From Octopus sinensis (taxonomy: Eukaryota), in assembly GCF_006345805.1 (NCBI RefSeq), contig NW_021834209.1, positions 1-50,759 of the forward strand: a stretch of 50,759 nt of DNA, in the 5' to 3' direction. The position numbers and the translations under genes were made by a program. Numbering within the stretch: the first letter of the stretch is position 1; the number at the start of each line of letters is the position of its first letter. Positions 911 through 50,759 of the stretch are shown piece by piece. The notes under the pieces were generated by a model. The model searched no databases, had not been told where the DNA came from, and was given only the letters and a program-made list of their open reading frames with translations.

Positions 911-1321
911 AAGGCGGTGAGCTGGCAGAAACGTTAGCTCACCTGCCAGGCGAAATGCTTAGCGGTATTTCGTCTGACGTTACGTTCTGAGTTCAAATTC
1001 CACCGAGGTCGACTTTGCCGTTCATCCTTTCGGGGTCGATAAATTAAGTACCAGTTACGCACTGGGGTCGATGTAATCGACTGAATCCGTTTGTCTGACC
1101 TTGTTTGTCCCCTCTGTGTTTAGCCCCTTGTGGGTAGTAAAGAAATTGAAATAGGTATTTCGTCTGTTTTTACGTTCTGAGTTCAAATTCCACCGAAGTC
1201 GACTTTGCCTTTCATCCTTTCGAGGTCGATAAATTAAGTACCAGTTGCGTATTGGATTCGATCTAATTGACTGGCCCCCTCCCCCAAAATTTCGGGACTT
1301 GTGACTAGAGTAGAAAAGAAT
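911..1321 (+). mobile_element. tRNA-derived SINE family S1, dimeric form (unit 1 with Tx1-like tail, unit 2 with a different tail)
   Basis: Head ggcggtgagctggcagaaacgttagc (A-box-like) and GTTCAAATTCC (B-box-like). Body duplicated at 965-1146 and 1153-1321. Same architecture at 35887-36275. Confidence 0.85.
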
Positions 1322-1353
1322 GATATATCAGCTCGCATTTTGTCTCACATAGT

Positions 1354-8257: not shown

Positions 8258-8271
8258 TAAATGTATATATA

Positions 8272-8945
8272 CTAGCAGTATCGTCCGGCGTTGCTCGGGT
8301 TTGTAAGGGAAATAACTATATAAGCATTTTTAGAGAGTTATAGCAAAAAAATAGCAAAAAAATGCATTAAAAATGGAATAAAAAATTATGGTAATTTTTT
8401 TTTTAAATCGTTGACTCGTCGTAGACATTTTTAGAGAGTTACTTCCCTTATATAATAGCGAAAAAAATGCATTAAAATGGATAAAAGGATGGTAAATTTT
8501 TTTTTAAATCGTAGACTCATCGTAGACGCTTTTTTAGCAATTTCGGTTTTGGTGTCTTCAAGCCATGAAGTCGTTGTTCTAAAAGAACGCTGGTTTCCTT
8601 GACAACGCTTTACGACGTTGATTTCCTTACACTCCCTTCCCCACAGCTTCACGAGGGAGGGAAGAAGGGGGAGAAGCAACACAGGTGCAAGTGTGAGCGT
8701 GGACGCCAACTCGGCCGCCATCGACACACGAAAAAATATGCATTAAAATGGAATAAAAAATGATGTTAAATTATTTTTAAAATGGTAGACTCATTGTAGA
8801 CGCGCGCTAATACTCAGACGGGCTCGATATGAATCACGACTATAAGATACCCGAATTTGGTTAAACTGCACCGCAAAATGTGGGAGTAGTTAGGAATCTA
8901 AATCGAAGGGGACAGACACTCACACAACTACAGTTTTATATATAT
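8272..8945 (-). mobile_element. Non-autonomous Helitron (family A) with internal ~100-bp duplications
   Basis: 3' end CCCGAGCAACGCCGGACGATACTGCTAG (hairpin plus CTAG). Near-identical to 8947-9445 and 50261-50759. Confidence 0.85.
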
Positions 8946-8946
8946 A

Positions 8947-9436
8947 CTAGCAGTATCGCCCGGCGTTGCTCGGATTTGTAAGGGAAATAACTATATAAGC
9001 ATTTTTAGAGAGTTACTTCCCTTATAAATTCAGGCTTTCTTAGCCATTTTTGTTTTGGTATCTTCAAGCCATGAAGTCGTTGTTCTAAAAGAACGCTGGT
9101 TTCCTTCACAACGCATTACGACGTTGATTTCTTTACACTCCCTTCCCCACAGCTTCACGAGGGAGGGAAGGGGGAGAAGCAAACAGGTGCAGCTGTGAGC
9201 GTGGACGCCAACTCCGCCGCCATCGACACACGATGCATTTTATGCATTAAAATGGAATAAAAAATGATGTTAAATTATTTTTAAAATTGTAGACTCATCG
9301 TTGACGCGCGCTAATAGTCAGACGGGCTCAATATGAATCACGACTATAAGATACCCGGTTTTGGTTAAACTGCACCGCAAAATGTGGGAGGAGTTAGGAA
9401 TCTAAATCGAAGGGGACAGACACTCACACAACTAGA

Positions 9437-9445
<9 letters not shown>
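8947..9445 (-). mobile_element. Non-autonomous Helitron (family A), tandem copy
   Basis: Same CTAG/hairpin end and body as 8272-8945, directly head-to-tail with it. Confidence 0.85.
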
Positions 9446-9796: not shown

Positions 9797-10593
<797 letters not shown>

Positions 10594-12677: not shown

Positions 12678-12780
12678 ACACACACACACATATATATATA
12701 TATCAACAGAGACAGCCAATCAGATAGACAGATGAATAGATAGAGAGATAGAGATAGATGGATGGATAGGTAGATAGATT

Positions 12781-12853
<73 letters not shown>

Positions 12854-13150
12854 CTTTTTATTGTAGCCACACAGGGCTAAACACAGAATAAAAATGGACA
12901 AAATACAATGTAGAATTTTTTCTTTTCGAGGTGGGATGGGTGGGGCACAAAAAAAAAACACGTTTGATCAATAGGGATCTGTGGGTTGTGTGGTGTATAA
13001 AAAGGCAATATATATATATATATATATATAAGGTTCACAGTTTAGGTGTAGCTTTGGAAAGAAAAACCTACAAAAAAGACCAAGGTCACTTCAGACAATT
13101 CGAAAAAGAACACATGAGTAAGTCGCCTTACTTCTCGTTGTCTCTTTTGG

Positions 13151-16100
13151 TTACAGATTTATGCTTAAAATAGTGTCGTCTTTCATACTGACCATTTTTG
13201 CCACTTTTACCCACTTTTTATTAAAACATTCGTTCGACAAAGCCTTCCTCTCAATTCTCATCCTCCTTTTCAAGTGGTACTTGAAAAAAGTTGACGAGAG
13301 ACTGACCAGAGAGGAAGGTGTTTGTTTGCAGTCCTTTCAAACGCGTCCACCACACACATTCTTTCGCCACAGCCATCAGCGTAACGAAAACCGTTTTCCC
13401 TTCCCGTTTAAAGGAAGGTGGTGAAACAATATTCACGATAGACTCGGCTGATAGGCGAGCCCGACCTACACGCGACAACAGCTGTTCGACGAAGGACCAC
13501 AGCTCTGAAATATCTGGACACTGCACGAGTGCGTGCAGAACGGTTTCGTCGCTCTGACCGCATCTCGGGCAGGACGGTCCGGTGATGGTTTTCGAACCGT
13601 GTCTGTAGTTCTTCTCTCGAACAGGTAATGCGTCTCGATAGCACTGCCAAGCCAGGGATTTCTGGAAGTTATCCATAGGCCCCGGCCCGAACGTCGTCCT
13701 GAACAGGCGGGTTAGGAATTCTTCGTCGACGCCCAGGTTTGCCCCGAGTGTGTCGTCGGACCTCCCCTCCACTAGTCCTCTATAGAACGCTTTAGTCGTT
13801 TGTAAGTTGCACAAGTTTGACCCCGGTCGGCAGAGCTGCTGTAGAGCTTGGCGACACTCTCGGTGCCAATCGCCCAGTTTCGGTCTCTTTTTGATCCACG
13901 TTTGCTGTTCGGTCAGTGAGACGAGCTGCGGGAAGTCGCGCCTCACAAACGGCGCCCACACCTGTTCACCGTCGTCGATGAAGTTCCAGAGATGTCGCAG
14001 TCTCAGCGCATGCCTGCGCATCATCAACCACGGCATGCCCAGTCCTCCATTCAACGGATGTTGACAGCAAATGGACTTCCTCACCATCGGAACGCCACCC
14101 TTCCACAGGAAGCGGAAGAGTATGCGTTCCAGTTTGGTGATGGTGGCGTCGGGACAAGGTACGACGGTCAGGCGGTAATCGATGACGGATGCGATGTACG
14201 CGTTCGCCACCTCCGCCCGGCCTTTTAGAGACAGCTTTCTCTCGGCCCATGTTTGGCTGAGCGACCACTCTACTCGTGATCTCGTCCCAGTTCTTATCCA
14301 TTTGGAGGTCCGGACTGAACCAGACTCCGAGCAATTTAACCGGTCCGTCCGTCTAGCGTCCCACTACTGAGCCGCAGTCGGACGGCATGGGCTTGCTTCT
14401 CCAGGTGCCGAGTAGCAAACCCACTGACTTTTCCGGGTTAATCTTTGCTCCCGTCACCGTTTCGTATTTTCTTAGTGTCTCGCCTATCATCTTTGATGTG
14501 TTTGTCGCTCGACACTATGACGGTGACATCGTCCGCATATGCCGACACGCTCGTCCCGCAACCCAGTTCCCGTGGGATGCCCCTCAGTGTCGCCAGCTTC
14601 CGCAGTAGCGGCTCGAGAGTCAATACATACAGAAGCGCCGACAGGGCACACCCCTGACGGACCGAACGCGTGATGCCAAACGGTTTCGACAGATGACCGT
14701 TCACCCGAATCACCGATCGGATGCCGCTATACAAGGCAGCGATCCAACCGCGGCAGACGGGACCGAAGCCAGCCGCCCTGAGGACGGCCGCCAAGTACCG
14801 ATGGTCGACCCTATCGAAGGCTTTAGACTGATCCAAATTGATCAGTGCCCCACCCATGCCAGGATCCTTAACTACCCTGTCCACAATGTAGCGCATCAGA
14901 TGGAGGTTGTCATGTATGGTTCTGCCCGGCACGGCGCATGTTTGCGCCCTGTCGACCAGTTTACCAATGACAAACGCCAACCTCTCGGCTATTACTTTGG
15001 CCAAAATTTTCAAATCTGCGTTGAGCAGAGTGATGGGCCTGAAATTATCTATAAAATTCCCCTTGTTTGTGTCTTTCTTCAGCAACGTCACTGCACCACG
15101 GCTCACGAAACCGGGGATTCTCCCGTTTTGTTGCCAGTTGCAGTAGACTGATGCCAAGAGGTCGCCAAACAAGTCTGGCATTTGACAATACAGCTCGTAG
15201 GGTAAACCATCCAATCCAGGCGACTTATCCCTCGCGCAGCCCGCCATCGCATCTCGCACGTCAGCGGCTGTGATGGGACTTTCACAACACTCCGCTTCTC
15301 TTGCCGAGAGCCGCGGCAGGTCGGTCAGGTAGGCACTGAAATCCATCCCGCGTTGACCCACCACTCGCACCAAACAGTCGAGCAAAGTGCTGTTGAAAGC
15401 CTCACACATCCTTTCGGGTTCGAGTAAACTGCATCCCTGTTGATCTATTAAAGACCGAATGGTGGCTCTGTTTCCACGCTGCGCCTCCGCTACCCGGGCC
15501 TCTCGCGCAGCTTCGATCCCTTCGTTCCTTAAGGCACGCATTTTAGCTCTGACGACGCAACCTTCGTGCCTGGCGTTGAGGTGTTGGTCGAGGGCCATCC
15601 TCGCAGCCAGCACGTTGGTTGCGCTGCCAGTGGTAAATGCCTCTTCTAGTTTCTTAACTAAGTCTCCCTCTACTCTATTTCGTTCTATCGCTAATTCCTT
15701 GCCAAACCTAATTGATTCCGATTTTATTGCCATTTTCAGGGCGTACCACCAGCGGTTGTTAACGACGGCTCCCGTCAGCGCCCTCTTAATTAACTCGCTA
15801 ATCCGGTTCCTGTAAACCTGTCGCACTAACAGCGACGTGTTCAGTTTCCAGTAACCGGGACCCTGCCTATGTGTTTTATCTAAGTCGAGCGTACACGTAA
15901 CAAATTTGTGGTCTGTGTAGCTGACTATTTTAAATTGTGGACATCCTACACTATCCCTATCCGCTGTCCTGCATAGAATTCTATCTAGATAAGATCTCGA
16001 CGATCCGACGCGGTTTGTCCAAGTCTACGTTGGCACGTTCGGATGGTCGAGTCGGAACCTGTCAGACAAATGGAAACGTCTGAGCAGGTCTTTGAGGCTC

Positions 16101-16597
16101 TTACACCCCCTTCTATTCCTATCCCTTCCCACATAATCTACATGCGTGTCCAAGGTAGCGTTCCAATCCCCTACTCACAGTAAAGGTCTAGACGTACCCA
16201 GGAAAACCTCTAGACGTCTGAAGAAATCCGCCCGACCCATTAAGGACGGTGCATAAACTGCCATCAGACGGAATGCACACCCATTTCTGCCATCCACGTC
16301 CAAGACAACCAGCCTACCCTCCGGGTCTAGGAATATTACTCTTATTTTTACATTTAGACTCTTTCGAAAAGCACCGCGGTACCTCCACCACCCATGTTCG
16401 GCAGGCAGGGAGAAAAATAAATGTCAAATTGATTGCTAAACATGGACTCGAGGGCCCGCAGCTTACTGAGTCTGGTTTCACTGATAGCTACCTATATCCA
16501 CATTCAGTGACTTGATGTCGTTTAGAAGGTAACCTTGCTTCCAAGCCGACGCCAAGCCACGCGCATTCACACAACCTAATTTAAGCATACTTGACAT
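13151..16597 (-). pseudogene. Tx1 ORF2: APE endonuclease, reverse transcriptase and zf-RVT; several frameshifts
   Basis: Starts MSSMLKLGCVNARG (ATG at 16597). APE motifs GDWNA, RSYLDRI, TDHK. RT motifs KSPGLDG, NFRPITLLNADLKILAK, LDQSKAFDRVDH, SVRQGCALS, SAYADD. C-terminal CPRCGQSDETVLHALVQC. Pieces are ORFs 14438..15826, 13966..14334 and 13251..14210; stop TAA at 13151-13153 in the shifted frame. Confidence 0.92.
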
Positions 16598-16662
16598 TTA
16601 CGAAAATTGTGTTTTACACACTACATTAGAAGAGACAAGAGGCAAGAGGGGATGTCACTTAC

Positions 16663-18536
16663 TCATTTTAAAAGTTTCATTTTTTCTTCTTCTTTTGTAT
16701 TGTTTTTGATTAGGTGTTTGTATAGTTTTTTCGACAGGTATCGTTGAAACCCGCCTACCGCATTCGGAAATATTGTTTTCAGTATGTGGTGCTGTGCTTG
16801 TGTTATGTGTAAAATTCTGATGTGTTTCGGTGGTGTGGTGTGCGGATGATTGTTTGTCTTAAAGTCATCTTCACAGATGACCGTGCTGGATGTGATGTAG
16901 TCCATTAATTCTTTATTGCCTGTGTCTATTGCAGTTAGTTGTGTGTGTGGTTTTACAGTTTCATTGCTTTTTTGATTGTCTAGGGGGTTGTTGTCTGGAG
17001 TTAGATATCTCCCTGCTTTACTTCCTTGTTTGGTGGATCTTTTGGATCTTTTCCTTTTACCCCCTGTGGCTATTTGCCATTCCGTCGAACTTTCGTCGTC
17101 CGACGTATCAGTATGGGGTAGAGGCAAAGCATTTGCATTACTATGTATGCTTGTATAAATTGTTGATGTTTTGTGCGGTGTTGTTGTGGTGTTAGGGGTA
17201 GAATTTGTCTTCTCGTCACTGTTTTCTGTCTTTTAATTGTCATCCTCGGTGTGGGTGTTGGTCTATTTTTTGTTGATTCAACATGTTTAATTGGTTGTGA
17301 CGTCAACGGTGATTGTGTTGGTACTGTTTCTTTTCTTGGTGATGTTGTTGGGGTTTGTTTGCTGGTTTGTTGTTTTTCTTGGCATTGTTCCATAATTGAG
17401 TGTGTTGGTGTTGGTGTTGGCAACAAGGGCTTTTTATTTGTTTTCTGATTTGTTCTTTCTTGTTTTTTCTGTACCAGAGCGCACTTGGCAATTAAATGTT
17501 CGGGGCTGCCACAGTTGTAGCATCTAGGCTTTTTGCCTTCTGCTACAACATATAGGCATTGCCCATTTTCCAAGTGGATCTTATCCGGTAGGCTCTCGAT
17601 AGAGGCCCCCTCAATCTGTATGGTCACCACTATTGTCTTCCCACCCCAAATGTCGCCAAGGTACACGGCGGTTTCCAAAATGTTGATATTTTTAAAATGG
17701 TAACAGATTGCCCCTGTTATCCATTTGTTAGGAATCTCGGGAGGTACATTTTTAATAGTGATTCGACTCACTCTCTGGTTTTTATAGTATGGGACCATGA
17801 TGATTTTATCATTTCCCAGAGACTCAGTAGAGTGAGCTTTTGCCACTTCCTGGTTAGGGAAGCGGACCACTACTGTGTTAAACTGGGGACCCCAGTTTAT
17901 ATATTCTTTTTCTTTCATTATGTTTTTTAAGCATTTTTCTACATCCGTTTTTGTAATCTGTTCATTTAGTTTTTTGTTTTTTCTTATAATTTTATAAATA
18001 ATTGTCTTATTTTCTATTTCTTGCTTTATGTGTTGAGGTGCATGCAGCACTAAATCTTGTCCACGGGTTGTAAAGAGAGCTCTTGTTTCTATGAGCTCTT
18101 CATTTGTAAATATTACAATCTCCTTCTTCTGGCGCAGAGTGTCGGCGAAATTTACTGGTGTTGTTGATTTTTTTGTATTAACATCTTCACTATTAGATAG
18201 TTCATTTTTATTGTTGTTCTTGTTGTTGCTGTTGTTTTTGTCAATAGTTTTCGTGTGAGTTTTATTTTTATCATTTATGTTGGTGGTGGTGGTGGTGGTG
18301 GTGGTGGTGGAGGTGGTGGTGGTAGCAGTAGTAGTCTCGTGGTTGCTGTTGTTAGTGGTGGTGGTGGTGGTGACAGGGCTGTTACCGCACGTGGTTGCAG
18401 CGTTCATTCCACCGATATTCATGTTTGCACTTTCCGTGCATGTGTTCTTTTTTTCTTCTCCTAGCGTTTCCAAACTAGGAAAATGCTGGTCCATAAAGGA
18501 ACGCGACCAGCGTTCTACAATAAAATTTCTCGACAT
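16663..18536 (-). pseudogene. Tx1 ORF1 (Gag-like nucleic-acid-binding protein with zinc knuckle), one apparent frameshift near 17100-17130
   Basis: ORF 17070..18536 contains CYNCGSPEHLIAKC (CX2CX4HX4C) and a Thr/Asn low-complexity N-terminus. ORF 16663..17127 continues it (EWQIATGGKRKRSKR basic motif) and stops just upstream of the ORF2 ATG. Confidence 0.8.
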
Positions 18537-18729
18537 TTTCTAATGTCGAGAAGAAAATTACAGAAATGGGGTTGAAACTGCCCCTAGGGGCGAATTCCTC
18601 CCTTGGAAAAGCACTCAAACGAAAGTTGGGTGCCTTACACACCTTATTTGCAAAAATGTACACAAAATATGGGCTATAAATAGTCAAAATAAACGATTAC
18701 CTTCGGAGCCGAAGTGACAGCACGTTCGT

Positions 18730-19050: not shown

Positions 19051-20054
19051 AACCTTCTTTATTGGCCACACAAGGCTGAACACAGAGGGGACAAATACAA
19101 ATGTAGAGTTTTTCTTTTCGGAAATGAAAAACAAAAAGGGAATAAAAGAGAAAAAGATACAATTCCGATCAAAAGGGATCGTGTATCACAGAAGAATTTT
19201 AAAAATGTAAAAAGCAAGATTAAGTTTATCCGTGGAAAGAAAAGCCTACGGAAAAGACCACGCTAACCACAGACAGGAAGGGAATAAACACGAGAGCAAA
19301 GTGCTCTCCCTCTCTCTTTTTTCGATTTACAGAATCATTCTCAAATTGGTCTCGTCACTCGCACGCACCATCTTTGCTACATTCATCCACCTTTTTCCGA
19401 AACTTTCACGAGACAAAACCTGCCTCTCCATTCTCCTTTTCCTTTTCAAGTGGTACTTGAAAAAGTTGATCAGCGATTGGCCATAGAGGTAAGTGTTTTT
19501 CTCTAATCCTTTCGCTCGAGTCTACCACACATTCTTTCACCATGGCCACCAGTACGATGAAGACTGCCTTGCCTTCCCGGCTGAGGGAAGGTAGCGGGAC
19601 AGTTGTGAAGATAGACTCGGCCGAGAGGCGGGCTCGTCCCACACGTGACAGCAGCCGTTCAGCATAAGCCCAGAGGTTCGAAATAGCTGGACACTGCACG
19701 AATGCGTGCTGAACGGTTTCGTCTCTCTGGCTGCATCTCGGGCAAGTCGGTCTGATGTGTCTCGAACCATGCCTGTAGAGCTTATCACGAACAGGTAATG
19801 CTTCTCGATAGCACTGCCAGGCCAGGGATCTTTGATGATTGCCTATAGGTCCTGGCCCGAAAGTTATCCTGAACAGGCAGATCAAGTGTCTCTCGTCGAC
19901 GCCCAGATTCTGCCCGAGAACGTCGTCGCACCTCCTCTCCACTAATCTTCTATAGAACGCCTTTGTTGTAATGAAGTCGGACGGCAGAGTTGCTTGAGAG
20001 CAACGCGACACTCGCGGTGTCATTCGCATAGCCTCGGTCTCTGCTTGATCCACG
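19051..20054 (-). mobile_element. 5'-truncated Tx1 LINE, related but distinct subfamily (ORF2 C-terminus plus 3' UTR)
   Basis: ORF 19406..20053 aligns by eye with 13251..14210 (TTKAFYR, FGPGP, SLAWQCYR.ALPVR, CPRCSQRDETVQHAFVQC). The 3' end AATAAAGAAGG is followed by degenerate (TATC)n. Confidence 0.9.
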
Positions 20055-20234
20055 ACTGCAGCTTATAATTTAGTATTCGCTTTCCGTTTACATCTATAAA
20101 GGAAATTATTCTAACACGTCCTACCGTCGGATGATCTCTCATCATTAATGGATAAAAACATTCGAATCTTTATCCCCTGCAAGAGAACTTCTGACGATTA
20201 GCTATTTAAAGCAAGCACAAACTAGAACGTTGCT

Positions 20235-25708: not shown

Positions 25709-26274
25709 CCTCCTTCTTTCTTTCCTTTCCTGAGCGTCCAATAATACTATACTTGTTCCACGTCCTCGCGTTGTTGCGTTTTCTCATTGTGTTTTCATGT
25801 TTGGATTAACTATATATATATATATATATGCATGCATATATGTACGTGCATATGTATGTATGTATGTATGCATGTAAGTATGTATGTATTTTAGGATGTG
25901 TTTGTCCTCCACTCTAGCGCTCGAGAATGTTTTTTTCATATCCCTCGAATCCTAATTGTTCAGCAAGAGGCTGCTAGAATAAATATCAGGCTTATAAAAT
26001 AAGTATTTGGGGTTGAAATGTAATCACGACAGTCATAAAGTGGTGGATTTTCCGTTGGTTTCCCCGATGAGGGTACTTTTGTTGTTTAACTGAATTCTTA
26101 CTGGTGTAAGTGGCCGAGTATTCCACAGAGCGCCGTACTCTTAAAGAACTCTGCAGGCTAACTAAGCGTGAGACTCGGTGACAAGTCTGAACTTTTTAAT
26201 TGCCATTGCAATACAGAGATTGAGAGAGGAAAGAAGGAAAAAGGAAAGGAGAACTGACTTCTACTTGTTCAATA

Positions 26275-26500
26275 CCTATTTCTTTACTACCCACAAGGGG
26301 CTACACACAGAGGGGACAAACAAGGACGAACAAAGGGATTAAGTCGATTACATCGACCCCAGTGCGTAACTGGTACTTAATTTATCGATCCCGAAAGAAT
26401 GAAAGGCAAAGTCGACCTCGGCGGAATTGAACGTAACGGTAGACGAAATACGGCTACGCATTTCGCCCGGCGTGCTAACGTTTCTGCCAGCTCGCCGCCA
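26275..26500 (-). mobile_element. SINE family S1 with Tx1-like tail
   Basis: Reverse complement of the 911-1146 unit with an internal deletion. Confidence 0.85.
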
Positions 26501-28490: not shown

Positions 28491-28738
28491 TAAAAACAGA
28501 AGTGCAATTTTATTTTGGAAAGCATGTATATATATATATACATCCTATATAGGTAACATCAACAAAAAAAGTACTCTTTCCAGTGAGAGAAAAATATCAA
28601 TTTAATACACAACCGAAAGAGCTACTCATAGTTTCATAATACTTTTTAATGTTACTCTAACTAGGCATAATTATAAAATGCGTCATGTATCTCCAACCAA
28701 TCTTTCAGGCGATGTTTATACGTTATAAATATTTTAAA

Positions 28739-28972
28739 AGGCGGCGAGCTGGCAGAAACGTTAGCACCCTGGACGAAATGCTTATTGGTATTTCGTTTGT
28801 CTCTACGTTCTGAGTTCAAATTCCGCCGAGGTCGACTTTGCCTTTCATCCTTTCAGGGTCGATTAAATAAGTACCAGATACGCACTGGGGTCGATGTAAT
28901 CGACTTAATCCCTTTGTCGGTCCTTGTTTGTCCCCTCTATGTTTAGCTCTTTGTGGGTAATAAAAAAAATAT
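28739..28972 (+). mobile_element. SINE family S1 monomer with Tx1-like tail
   Basis: Full head-body-tail match to 911-1146, ending gggtaataaaaaaaat. Confidence 0.88.
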
Positions 28973-33008: not shown

Positions 33009-33377
33009 CTAGCAGTATCGCCCGGCGTTGCTCAGGTTTGTAAGGGAAATAACTATAAAGCATTTTTAGAGAGTTATAGCCAAAAAATAGCAAAAAAATG
33101 GAAAAAAAATGATGGTAAATCTTTTTTTGAGAGTTAAAAAAGGTCGAGTTGCGTCCCCTAGACAGTCTGTGGTTTGTGTTTCTGATTCTCGACCCCATGT
33201 CGAATTTATCAATTTTTTTCAGAACTGGGGGAATTTTTCAAAATTTTCGCTGCGTTAGTTTTGAATTATGACATTGGGCTATGTGTGTGTCAAGTTTCAT
33301 CAGAATCGGTTGAAAGCCGTGGTCAGGGTGAGGGTACAAGCAAACAGACACACAGAAACACACACAGACAAACTGCC

Positions 33378-35342: not shown

Positions 35343-35886
35343 CATGCGTTAGTGTGTGTTGTGTGTGCTTGTGTGTGTGCGCGTGTACGTATACAACAGT
35401 AATGGTGCCAGCTAGGACAAAGCAACAGCAAGAAGCGAATAATAATTTCTTCAAATATTCTTGGAATTTAAATCTAATTCCAATCAACACCACACACCCC
35501 ACCAACACCACCACAACTCTTTTTAGTCAGAACTATTTGAAAATCGTGACTTCTCATCCCGATTAACGGATGTAATTTAATCCGGTCTAATCTTGTATTA
35601 AAGAGGTAAATCACATAGCTATTAGAAGCAGGAAGAGGGGGAGATGAGGGGGAGGGCTAATGAAGGGGAAAAGTTAATAAAGAGATTTAAACGATAATTC
35701 CTTGATATACATTTGTTGCGGTTTAGAATTAATATTTTAATTTCAGGTTATGACAGCTCCCTTTATAGGAATGTGGCTTTAAGGGGTCACTGTTTGGGAA
35801 GAGGTGTAGATTTAGAGAATACGTTCTGTCGTTGATGTTAAGGAAGGAAGTGTGAATTTAAGGGATTAATATTAAGGAGCAGGAAG

Positions 35887-36755
35887 GAGGCGAACTGGCA
35901 GAATCGTCAGCATGCTTAGCAGTATTTCGTTTGCCGTTACGTTCTGAGTTCAAATTCCGCCGAGGTCGACTTTGCCTTTTATCCTTTCGGGGTCGATTAA
36001 ATTAAGTACCAGTTACGTACTGGGGTCGATATAATCAACTTAATCCGTTTGTCGGTCCTTGTTTGTCCTCTCTGTCTTTAGCCCCTTGTGGGTAGTAAAG
36101 AAATAGGTATTGCGTCTGTCTTTACGTTCTGAGTTCAAATCCCGCCGAGGTCGACTTTTCCTTTCATCCTTTCGGGGTTGATAAATCAAGTATCAGCCGC
36201 GCACTGGGATCGATCTAATCGACTGGCCCCCTCTCCCCTAAAATTTCGGGCCTTGTGCCTAGAGTAGAAAAGCATATATACAACGGCCCATGCCAGTTGC
36301 GTACTGGGGTTGATCTAATCGACAGGCACCCTCCCCCCAAATTTCGGGCCTTGTACTTTGAGTAGAAAAGAATATTAGGGAACATGAAGTTGGTGAGCTG
36401 GCAGAATCGTTAGCAGGCCGGGCGAAATTATAAGTGGTATTTCGCTCGTCTTTATGTTCTGTGTTCGAATTCCGCCAAGGTCGACTTTGCTTTTCTTCCT
36501 TTGGAGGTTAATAAAATAAGTACCAGTTGAGCACTGCGGTTGATGTAATCGACTTACGAAATTCCTGGCCTTGTACCAAAATTTGAAATTAATATCAAGG
36601 AAGAGGAATATGGCTTTAGGCACAAGGCCCGAAATTTTGGGGGAGGGGTCAGTCAATTAGATCGACTCCAGTACGCAATGGTGCTTAATTTATCGACCAC
36701 GAAAGGCAAAGTCGACCTCGACAGAATTTGAACGTTTCTGCCAGCTAGCCGCCTT
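35887..36755. mobile_element. Cluster of S1 SINEs: dimer (35887-36275), duplicated tail (36293-36374), monomer with a third tail type (36391-36597), inverted partial copy (36614-36755)
   Basis: Repeated gttctgagttcaaattccgccgaggtcgactttgcctttcatcctttcggggtcgat body in both orientations. Confidence 0.85.
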
Positions 36756-41245: not shown

Positions 41246-41474
41246 TTTTCTTTATACCCACAAGGGGCCAAACACAGAGGGGACAAACAAGGACCGACAA
41301 ACGGATTAAGTCGATTACATCGACCCCAGTGGGTAACGGTCTTATTTAATCGACCCCGAAAGAAGAAAGGCAAAGTCGACCTCGGCGGAATTTGAACTCA
41401 GGACGTAACGGCAGACGAAATACGGCTCTACGCATTTCGCCCGACGTGCTAACGTTTCTGCCACTCGCCGCCTT
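41246..41474 (-). mobile_element. SINE family S1 monomer in (TA)n
   Basis: Reverse complement of the 28739-28972 type, with (TA)n on both sides. Confidence 0.85.
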
Positions 41475-45442: not shown

Positions 45443-45820
45443 CTAGCAGTATCGCCCGGCGTTTGCTCGGGTTGTAAGGAAATAACTATAAAGCATTTTT
45501 AGAGAGTTATAGCCAAAAAATAGCAAAAAAATGGAAAAAATGATGGTAAATTTTTTTTTAGTTAACAAAGGTGGAGTTGCGTCCCATGACAGTTTGCAGT
45601 TTGTGTTTCTTCTGATTCTCGACCCCATGTCGAATTTATCGATTTTTTCGGAACTGGGGGAACTTTTCAAAATTTTCGCTGCTGCGTTAGTTTTGAATTA
45701 TGACATTGGGCTATGTGTGTGTCAAGTTTCATCAGAATCGGTTGAAAGACGTGGTCAGGGTGAGGGTACAAGCAAACAGACATACAGAAACACGCACAGA
45801 CAAACTGCCGTTTATATAGA
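45443..45820 (-). mobile_element. Non-autonomous Helitron (family B)
   Basis: 5' TC at 45820 and 3' hairpin plus CTAG at 45443. Copy of 33009-33385. Confidence 0.85.
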
Positions 45821-50260: not shown

Positions 50261-50759
50261 TCTATATATATATAAAACTGTAGTTGTGTGAGTGTCTGTC
50301 CCCTTCGATTTAGATTCCTAACTACTCCCAAATTTTGCGGTGCATTTAACAAATTCGGGTATCTTATAGTCGTGATTCATATCGAGCCCGTCTGGGTATT
50401 AGCGCGTCTACGATGAGTCTACGATTTTAAAAATAATTTAACATCATTTTTGATTCCATTTTAATGCATAATTTTCGTGTGTCGATGGCGGCGGAGTTGG
50501 CGTCCATGGTCACACCTGCACCTGTTTGCTTCTCCCCCTTCTTCACTCCCTCGTGAAGCTGTGGGGAAGGAAGTGTAAGGAAATCAAAGTCGTAAAGCGT
50601 TGTCAAGGAGACCAGCGTTCTTTTAGAACAACGACTTCATGGCTTAAGACACCAAAACAGAAATGGCTAAGAAAGCCCGAATTGGCATCTATAAGGGAAG
50701 TAACTCTCTAAAAATGCTTATATAGTTATTTCCCTTACAAACTCTGAGCACGCCGGGCG
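50261..50759 (+). mobile_element. Non-autonomous Helitron (family A), 3' end cut by the window edge
   Basis: Starts TCTATATATA at 50261 and is the reverse complement of 8947-9445. Ends in the hairpin gagcacgccgggcg. Confidence 0.85.

What the first reader, a model, noticed from the sequence alone, without database searches (positions are those of the whole stretch)
19055..19095. SINE-LINE partnership visible in one window: the S1 SINE tail equals the Tx1 3' end
Seen: the Tx1 3' terminus (reverse complement of 19055-19095, TTTGTCCCCTCTGTGTTCAGCCTTGTGTGGCCAATAAAGAA) aligns without gaps at 34/41 to the SINE tail at 1104-1144 (TTTGTCCCCTCTGTGTTTAGCCCCTTGTGGGTAGTAAAGAA). The tail recurs near 26280, 28927, 36062 and 41248, and the long Tx1 has a related end (12855-12900). 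All keep a small GCC(C)...GG(C/G) stem-loop before the A-rich end. Established: stringent LINEs recognise a 3' stem-loop, and SINEs parasitise them by sharing it; this is classic for L2, CR1 and RTE and much less often reported for the L1/Tx1 group. Inference: S1 was mobilised by, or took its tail from, this Tx1 lineage.
Basis: partly seen in the sequence, partly recalled or inferred. Interest (0 to 1): 0.72.

Follow-up and report, generated by a model that had tools for sequence, protein, structure and literature searches.

The report
Octopus SINE borrows Tx1 hairpin tail
A very abundant short jumping repeat (SINE) in this animal genome, likely an octopus's, ends in the same predicted hairpin tail as a whole group of Tx1-like LINE retrotransposons, and it likely borrows the copying enzyme of a sister LINE family found elsewhere in the genome, not that of the microsatellite-targeting copies beside it.

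Summary
The 34/41 match is real (best of 200 shuffled windows 26/41), and the tail belongs to the LINEs: 30 of 30 protein-picked copies of the long element's family carry it. The pairing needs correcting. Both window LINEs belong to families sitting in (TATC)n with a 6-nt loop; the SINE has a 5-nt loop, avoids TATC (0 of 30 random copies) and has target-site duplications. Family F, found outside the window, matches the SINE's last 27 nt at 26-27/27 in 28 of 34 copies (window family B: 18-22/27), is never followed by TATC (0 of 30), has uninterrupted ORF2 frames and shares a junction inside the SINE head. Family G matches the upstream 32 nt best; no family matched the whole tail. ORF1-only elements share it too. 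Stem covariation held in the F clade plus ORF1-only set, not in a cross-family alignment. Mobilisation is inferred, not assayed. A 2013 table lists no animal SINE with an L1/Tx1-derived tail; Repbase and Dfam were not searchable. This scan found the same system before on other DNA of this genome.

The parts
19052..20061 (-). Short, 5'-truncated Tx1-like LINE (family B): end of ORF2 with zf-RVT, plus 3' UTR
   Evidence: zf-RVT 5.4e-10; 5' junction
19055..19095 (-). Family B 3' tail shared with the SINE (34/41)
19065..19076 (-). Predicted hairpin of the family B tail: stem GCC/GGC, 6-nt loop
18732..19051 (.). Degenerate (TATC)n/(TA)n tract between the two LINEs; target-type repeat of families A and B
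12853..18729 (-). Full-length Tx1-like LINE (family A, young). ORF1 with zinc knuckle in frame 17070-18539; ORF2 homology 16579-13257 split over three frames; 3' tail at about 12853-12900
12722..12852 (.). (TATC)n tract after the long LINE's 3' end
911..1146 (+). SINE copy with Tx1-type tail. A-box-like 923-933, B-box-like 991-1000, tail about 1085-1146, predicted hairpin 1123-1135 (GCCC/GGGU, loop CUUGU)
1154..1327 (+). Second SINE unit starting at SINE position 50 and ending in a different (non-Tx1-type) tail
26270..26499 (-). SINE copy with Tx1-type tail
28738..28968 (+). SINE copy with Tx1-type tail and a duplication of about 14 bp on both sides
35884..36280 (+). SINE copy with Tx1-type tail (35884-36104), followed by a second unit from position 50 with the other tail
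41247..41474 (-). SINE copy with Tx1-type tail

Best explanation
The SINE ends in the 3' tail shared by a radiation of Tx1-like LINEs in this genome and is likely copied in trans by the non-microsatellite families of that radiation, above all family F, rather than by the (TATC)n-targeting families A and B in the window. Shown: tail homology, the family-level identities, the target flanks, the duplications, and uninterrupted ORF2 frames in F. Inferred: the SINE is a Pol III transcript; a Tx1 ORF2 protein binds its predicted stem-loop, with the loop giving family specificity as shown for zebrafish L2; it nicks a loosely chosen target and primes reverse transcription at the AAUAAAGAAAU end, leaving duplications of about 13-19 bp. 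Also inferred: the tail is a mosaic (upstream half most like family G, last 27 nt like family F), built by template switching or inherited from an unsampled or extinct family. ORF1-only elements are a second group of passengers on the same machinery.
For: Terminus identity to the SINE majority's last 27 nt: F copies 27/27 in 8, 26/27 in 20, 24-25/27 in 5 and 13/27 in 1 of 34; B copies 18-22/27 in 29 and 7/27 in 1 of 30. Local score over those 27 nt: F 54/54, window B 23/54, window A 22/54. The upstream 32 nt score best against G (50-51/64). Targets: SINE followed by TATC-type repeat in 0 of 30 random and 0 of 30 BLAST-picked copies, and in 2 of 89 across all fetched DNA. F: 0 of 30. A: 30 of 30. 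Background 0.12%. Duplications: SINE 10 nt or more in 15 of 30 versus 3.3% of mismatched controls; F 17 bp in L322 and L267; G 11-19 bp in about ten copies, mostly starting 5-6 nt after AATAAA like the SINE's. Shared junction at SINE position 16-17: 5 SINE tails and 5 ORF1-only tails, 2 of 34 F, one F2 (L340). A C at the last stem position goes with an AAGA junction in SINEs (10 of 22 versus 2 of 67, Fisher p=6e-6), and the same pair of traits marks an F subfamily (L410, L412, L438, L446). Covariation in 29 F-clade, ORF1-only and SINE tails: 87% paired versus 79% shuffled (0 of 500), 8 cells with both sides changed, slid controls 19-48%. F ORF2 frames of 1128 and 1025 aa carry EN, RT and zf-RVT. 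Divergence ranges overlap: SINE 0.034-0.306, F 0.017-0.099. RTE- and CR1-like 3' ends did not carry the tail. Loop-specific recognition by ORF2: PMC4176376 (abstract).
Against: No family examined matched the whole tail (about 105 of the 150 listed zf-RVT hits, out of 24,041 candidates). F's 3' junctions are varied and do not reproduce the SINE's strong GGT/TAT bias: AGGT follows 1 of 30 F copies versus 7 of 29 random SINEs. Only 4 of 16 truncated F copies gave an exact duplication of 11 nt or more. F is younger on median (0.042) than the SINE (0.081), whereas window family B (0.098, range 0.055-0.141) overlaps the SINE in age. All LINE age samples were picked by similarity. A MAFFT alignment of 18 family tails gave no consensus fold, and pairing was below shuffles (25% versus 31%). 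The one search set was chosen by clade and anchored on AATAAA, and its sequences are related. The loop CUUGU also occurs in the (ATT)n-associated family D and in the SINE's other tails, so the loop alone does not single out F. No mobilisation or binding was assayed.
Confidence: 0.72

Rival explanations
1. The window lineage (family B or its ancestor) is the mobiliser. TATC targeting comes from pairing of the LINE's own read-through RNA end, so a SINE with another RNA end lands elsewhere.
For: 34/41 match. B overlaps the SINE in divergence. Some B copies are not in TATC. SINE duplications often begin with the bases that follow its tail.
Against: Different loop length and stem. 18-22/27 terminus identity versus 26-27/27 for most F copies. 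Full-length A copies have TATC on the 5' side as well (27 of 30). Target choice in Tx1 is attributed mainly to the endonuclease (PMC4494074, passage).
Confidence: 0.08
2. The direction is partly reversed or mutual: family F, or a subfamily, took its last 27 nt from the far more abundant SINE, so terminus identity does not name the mobiliser.
For: About 2x10^5 SINE tails by extrapolation from 31 in 400 kb. F copies lie next to SINE heads. Parallel C/AAGA variants occur in both.
Against: The CCC-loop-GGGU stem runs through F, F2 and F3, a well-supported ORF2 clade (99/99). The overall tail plan is common to all families, so the tail is old in the LINEs.
Confidence: 0.1
3. The tail was captured once from a Tx1-like element, but the SINE is now copied by another LINE clade, for example the unknown partner of its other tails, which share the loop CUUGU.
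For: The same head and body occur with two other tails carrying GGC-CUUGU-GCC and ending in (ATT)n. No LINE with those tails was found.
Against: The exact Tx1-type terminus, junction offset and duplication length are kept. The Tx1-tailed SINEs do not end in (ATT)n. RTE- and CR1-like ends lack the tail.
Confidence: 0.07
4. Chance similarity, or SINE fragments that landed at LINE ends.
For: The tail is short and U/C-rich.
Against: Shuffle maximum 26/41. Tail in 30 of 30 protein-picked copies. Reversed-sequence control gave no hit.
Confidence: 0.01

Closest known systems
Stringent SINE/LINE pairs with a shared 3' stem-loop (eel UnaL2/UnaSINE, zebrafish ZfL2-1/2; PMC4176376 abstract; PMC3747384 passages and Table 1)
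   Same: Short shared 3' tail with a predicted stem-loop before the terminus; family-specific loop; tRNA-type SINE head.
   Different: Those partners are L2, CR1, RTE, I and others. Table 1 of PMC3747384 lists no animal SINE with an L1/Tx1 tail. Recognition was assayed there, not here.
L1-clade pairs ZmSINE2/3 with LINE1-1_ZM (maize) and SINEX-3_CR with L1-1_CR (PMC3472496, part 1 of 3 read; PMC3747384)
   Same: L1-group LINE with a conserved tail of about 45-80 nt, a hairpin with compensatory changes, shared with SINEs.
   Different: Plants and a green alga. Here an animal, Tx1-like elements with no long poly(A), and many sister families with different targets sharing one tail plan.
SINEU and Tx1-Mar of crocodilians (PMC4494074; part 2 of 5, passages and section 16 read)
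   Same: SINE inferred to be mobilised by Tx1 from shared target preference and overlapping ages.
   Different: SINEU has snRNA heads and poly(A), and the paper found no LINE similar to the 3' half of SINEU-1. Here the link is a shared structured tail.
Kibi and Koshi, microsatellite-targeting Tx1 (PMC4494074, passage)
   Same: Window families A and B sit in one microsatellite on both sides, as Kibi does in (TC)n and Koshi in (TTC)n.
   Different: The repeat is (TATC)n. Relationship to Kibi/Koshi was not tested by tree.
HAL1 (half-L1) (search listing only; definition recalled)
   Same: Family E elements of about 1.5-1.7 kb carry an ORF1-like gene and a LINE tail, with no endonuclease within 30 of 30 fetched loci.
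   Different: Derived from Tx1-like elements with a zinc-knuckle ORF1, and sharing the structured tail with a SINE.
Octopus tRNA-SINEs OR1/OR2/OK (Ohshima and Okada 1994; seen only as citations in PMC4758252, PMC4824008, PMC5804259; the name OK is recalled)
   Same: tRNA-type SINEs of octopus; this SINE may be one of them.
   Different: The passages read name no LINE partner.

Membership tests
tRNA-derived SINE | Short, non-coding, dispersed at high copy number | tested here: met
   About 231-236 bp; 31 tails in 400 kb of arbitrarily placed stretches
tRNA-derived SINE | [quoted passage not shown] | tested here: inconclusive
   Box-like motifs at 923 and 991 by a recalled regex; ARAGORN 0 genes; no Rfam tRNA hit
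tRNA-derived SINE | Target-site duplications | tested here: met
   15 of 30 with 10 nt or more versus 3.3% control
Deu/Nin-domain SINE superfamily | Conserved central domain | not testable with these tools
   Resemblance is recalled only; an exact 21-nt text search found 0 papers
L1/Tx1 group of LINEs | ORF2 with AP endonuclease, RT and C-terminal zinc motif | tested here: met
   best PDB match human L1 ORF2p, 234 bits, versus 88 for R2
Tx1 clade | ORF1 with CCHC zinc knuckle (feature recalled) | tested here: met
   (two of five knuckle hits below Pfam's cut-off)
Tx1 clade | Target preference in many families | tested here: met
   A in (TATC)n 27 of 30 and 30 of 30; D followed by (ATT)n; F none detected
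Tx1 clade | RT phylogeny groups with named Tx1 elements | tested here: inconclusive
   No named Tx1 reference was available. Best named relatives are unannotated fish proteins with ZCCHC3-type ORF1 domains (329-365 bits). The tree only orders the families of this genome.
Stringent SINE/LINE pair (SINE with family F) | Shared 3' terminal sequence | tested here: met
   26-27/27 in 28 of 34 F copies
Stringent SINE/LINE pair (SINE with family F) | Conserved stem-loop with compensatory changes | tested here: inconclusive
   Met in the anchored F-clade/ORF1-only set and per sequence (hairpin score sum 136 versus shuffle maximum 108.5); not met in the cross-family MAFFT alignment
Stringent SINE/LINE pair (SINE with family F) | Shared insertion signature and concurrent activity | tested here: inconclusive
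   Same junction offset, duplication size and SINE-head junction; junction bases differ; age samples small and biased
Stringent SINE/LINE pair (SINE with family F) | Tail required for mobilisation by that ORF2 | not testable with these tools
   Needs an assay
Stringent SINE/LINE pair (SINE with window families A/B) | Shared target preference | tested here: not met
   A 30 of 30 and B 20 of 30 followed by TATC-type repeat; SINE 0 of 30 random
HAL1-like ORF1-only element (family E) | ORF1 followed directly by the LINE 3' tail, no ORF2 | tested here: met
   no endonuclease hit in 30 of 30 loci; tails lie shortly after the ORF1 match

The most novel reading that the evidence does not exclude
Animal Tx1-like LINEs are stringent-type elements, and this genome holds a whole natural series of them. 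One tail plan with swapped stems and loops is paired with different targets ((TATC)n, (ATT)n, U1 snRNA, the SINE's own head, or none). A SINE of about 200,000 copies and ORF1-only elements ride on it by patching their tails from several families. It would be the first animal tRNA-SINE with a Tx1-derived structured tail, and a ready test set for how the L1 group moved between stringent and relaxed RNA recognition.
Probability: 0.45. Interest if true: 0.68.

Novelty: new variant of a known kind. Interest (0 to 1): 0.5.

Why it matters
[quoted passage not shown] An animal Tx1-like radiation with a conserved, covarying 3' hairpin used by a very abundant SINE supports stringent recognition in that branch. 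It also offers natural loop variants and uninterrupted ORF2 frames for testing it. It names a likely engine for one of the commonest repeats of this genome. The principle itself (shared-tail parasitism, tail swapping) is well established.

Tried and rejected
The first self-BLAST was swamped by microsatellites and was repeated after masking. The first 5' junction analysis was confounded by TATC inside the reference and was redone. Rfam and ARAGORN gave nothing for the SINE head. An RVT_1 family search returned RTE-like, CR1-like and unplaced-contig elements; none carried the Tx1-type tail or the SINE's other two tails at its own end, so the partner of those two tails was not found. Cross-family covariation on a MAFFT alignment failed because stems and loops differ in length. 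A search for one LINE family matching the whole SINE tail found none. A test of whether F, or the subfamily of L414, homes strictly to the SINE head gave only 2 of 34; the strictly homing family of earlier notes was not sampled here. BLASTP of an F ORF1 against a fish relative matched only the zinc knuckle. An exact-text search for a SINE 21-mer found 0 papers; look-up by sequence in earlier notes found nothing. Literature searches for an animal Tx1-tailed SINE or an octopus SINE partner listed no such report. The library lacks most subscription papers, Ohshima and Okada 1994 was not read, Repbase and Dfam are not searchable, and no supplements were opened (the repeat library of PMC13282606 may bear on novelty). 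No read data, structure or complex prediction was run.

Full report
Observation. The match is as described: 34/41 ungapped between the reverse complement of 19055-19095 and 1104-1144, with four more SINE tails at 30-33/41 and the long LINE end at 27/41. Two hundred block-shuffled windows never exceeded 26/41. The window is contig C10680 of a 2.72 Gb animal genome; octopus is my inference from size and repeat content.

Anatomy of the window. A full-length LINE lies on the minus strand at 12853-18729. It has a zinc-knuckle ORF1 and an ORF2 (RVT_1, zf-RVT) broken over three frames; I call its family A. A 5'-truncated LINE at 19052-20061 (family B) lies directly upstream, separated by a TATC/TA tract. 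Five SINE copies of about 231-236 bp carry the shared tail. Two of them are followed by a second unit that starts at SINE position 50 and ends in another tail. Box-like motifs lie at 923 and 991, but neither Rfam nor ARAGORN recognised a tRNA.

The tail belongs to the LINEs. Thirty family A copies were picked by protein similarity alone, and all 30 carry the tail. Of 29 other family B copies, 28 carry it whole and one has an internal deletion (that query included the tail). So it is not a stray SINE fragment. In 400 kb of arbitrarily placed genome, a tail profile found 31 SINE tails (about 2x10^5 by extrapolation), one further LINE tail and two weak hits, and none in reversed sequence.

The window LINEs insert differently from the SINE. 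Family A has a TATC-type repeat in 27 of 30 5' flanks and 30 of 30 3' flanks. Family B has it in 9 of 29 and 20 of 30, against a background of 0.12%. This is like the microsatellite-targeting Tx1 families Kibi and Koshi (PMC4494074, passage). The SINE had it in 0 of 30 random and 0 of 30 BLAST-picked copies and 2 of 89 across all fetched DNA. It has duplications of 10 nt or more in 15 of 30 copies against 3.3% of controls. The hairpins differ too: a 6-nt loop in A, B and C, and a 5-nt loop CUUGU in the SINE.

A better partner lies elsewhere. Weak profile hits led to family D (ORF2 about 63% identical to A, followed by (ATT)n, loop CUUGU) and to family E, ORF1-only elements with the SINE's stem-loop. 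A zf-RVT search then gave family F in 13 of its first 30 loci. F ends in the SINE's terminus: 27/27 in 8, 26/27 in 20, 24-25/27 in 5 and 13/27 in 1 of 34 copies, against 18-22/27 in 29 of 30 B copies. F was followed by TATC in 0 of 30. It showed 17-bp duplications in two copies, though only 4 of 16 truncated copies gave an exact one of 11 nt or more. It has uninterrupted ORF2 frames of 1128 and 1025 aa with EN, RT and zf-RVT. Family G matches the upstream 32 nt of the SINE tail best (50-51/64 against 18 for F and 26 for B) but has another hairpin. No family among about 105 of 150 listed hits matched the whole tail. In a tree of the ORF2 C-terminus, A, B, C and D group together (91/79), apart from the F clade (99/99), G (98/100) and H/U (100/99); the root is unsure.

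Shared signatures. Prompted by earlier notes, I checked what follows each tail. Of 119 SINE tails, 45 run into SINE sequence: 29 at position 50 and 5 at position 16-17. The 16-17 junction also follows 5 ORF1-only tails, 2 of 34 F tails and one F2 tail. In SINEs, a C at the last stem position goes with an AAGA junction (10 of 22 against 2 of 67; p=6e-6; copies are not independent), and an F subfamily shows the same pair. Against this, the SINE's frequent AGGT junction (7 of 29) is rare in F (1 of 30), and its ATAT junction looks more like some G copies. More than one family may therefore have carried it.

Structure. Each of 28 tails has a 3-6 bp hairpin ending within 3 nt of the AATAAA; singly few are significant, but the summed score is 136 against a shuffle maximum of 108.5. 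A MAFFT alignment of 18 family tails gave no consensus fold and pairing below shuffles. In 29 F-clade, ORF1-only and SINE tails anchored on AATAAA, 87% of cells pair against 79% shuffled (0 of 500). The second pair is CG 19, AU 3, UA 2, GC 1, and slid controls give 19-48%. That set was chosen by clade and its members are related, so this is support, not proof.

Ages. Median distance to the majority: SINE 0.081 (0.034-0.306, n=28, random), F 0.042 (0.017-0.099, n=15), B 0.098 (n=30), A 0.009 (n=30), G3 0.033 (n=8), E 0.063 (n=7). The LINE samples are similarity-picked. A is younger than any sampled SINE; both B and F overlap it. A published Octopus vulgaris annotation lists 13 recently active L1-Tx1 families and many recently active SINEs; a search of its main text found no occurrence of 'partner' (PMC13282606, passages).

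Mechanism. Most likely (0.72) the SINE RNA is bound at its 3' stem-loop by an F-clade ORF2 and reverse-transcribed at a loosely chosen nick. Its tail was assembled from Tx1-like ends by template switching or came from an unsampled family. Homology, targets and duplications are shown; binding and mobilisation are inferred from the L2 precedent, where the loop gives specificity (PMC4176376, abstract). The window's own lineage (0.08), reverse transfer from SINE to LINE (0.10) and a non-Tx1 mobiliser (0.07) are the rivals.

Comparison with what is known. Shared tails are classic. For the L1 clade a 2012-2013 survey found 3 SINEs, in maize and Chlamydomonas, and its table has no animal case (PMC3472496 part 1; PMC3747384 passages and Table 1). 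SINEU was tied to Tx1-Mar by target preference, without a shared tail for SINEU-1 (PMC4494074). Bivalve SINE partners are CR1, CR1-Zenon, L2 and Nimb (PMC11481361, passages; PMC4824008, passages). My nine paper searches listed no Tx1-tailed animal SINE, but Repbase, Dfam, the 1994 octopus SINE paper and supplements were not seen. The label Tx1 rests on domain order, a zinc-knuckle ORF1, target preference and closer similarity to fish elements than to human L1, not on a tree with named references.

Verdict. It is a new variant of a known kind, interest 0.5. Earlier unreviewed notes of this scan describe the same system on other DNA of this genome. Families E and F were found here before that look-up, and the notes are not counted as evidence.

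Noticed in passing
L281:2228-2391 (+) (same place as L339): A Tx1-like tail is followed within 7 bases by a full-length U1 snRNA match (Rfam 125 bits); possibly a U1-associated family. One locus only.
   Followed up: partly
window 1154-1327, 36106-36280; L053, L058, L060: SINE chains whose later units start at position 50. Three of 10 chains examined are flanked by a single duplication, so they moved as one unit.
   Followed up: partly
window 1272-1327 and random loci L061-L130: The same SINE head and body occur with two other tails (stem GGC/GCC, loop CUUGU, ending in ATT repeats); no LINE partner was found.
   Followed up: partly
L211-L235, L291-L320: A large, diverse set of ORF1-only (HAL1-like) elements with Tx1-type tails; the ORF1 hit list shows evenly spaced copies about 1.75 kb apart.
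   Followed up: partly
L236-L260: Family D: Tx1-like elements nearly all followed by (ATT)n.
   Followed up: partly
L282-L287, L323, L324, L331, L451-L470: Families H2 and F2 are repeatedly followed by one fixed non-microsatellite sequence each, suggesting further specific targets or tandem arrays.
   Followed up: no
window 9797-10370 (+): Short 3' fragment of another retroelement (ORF 9942-10310, no Pfam hit; by recall like a Dong/R4 restriction-type endonuclease) with internal 56-bp repeats.
   Followed up: no
window 8264-9440, 33009-33343, 45443-45775, 50275-50759: A repeat family of about 0.5 kb with copies 91-97% alike, next to (TA)n tracts.
   Followed up: no
L161-L190: The top RVT_1 hits lie on unplaced contigs and form families not seen among 20 chromosomal hits; they may come from another organism in the assembly.
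   Followed up: no
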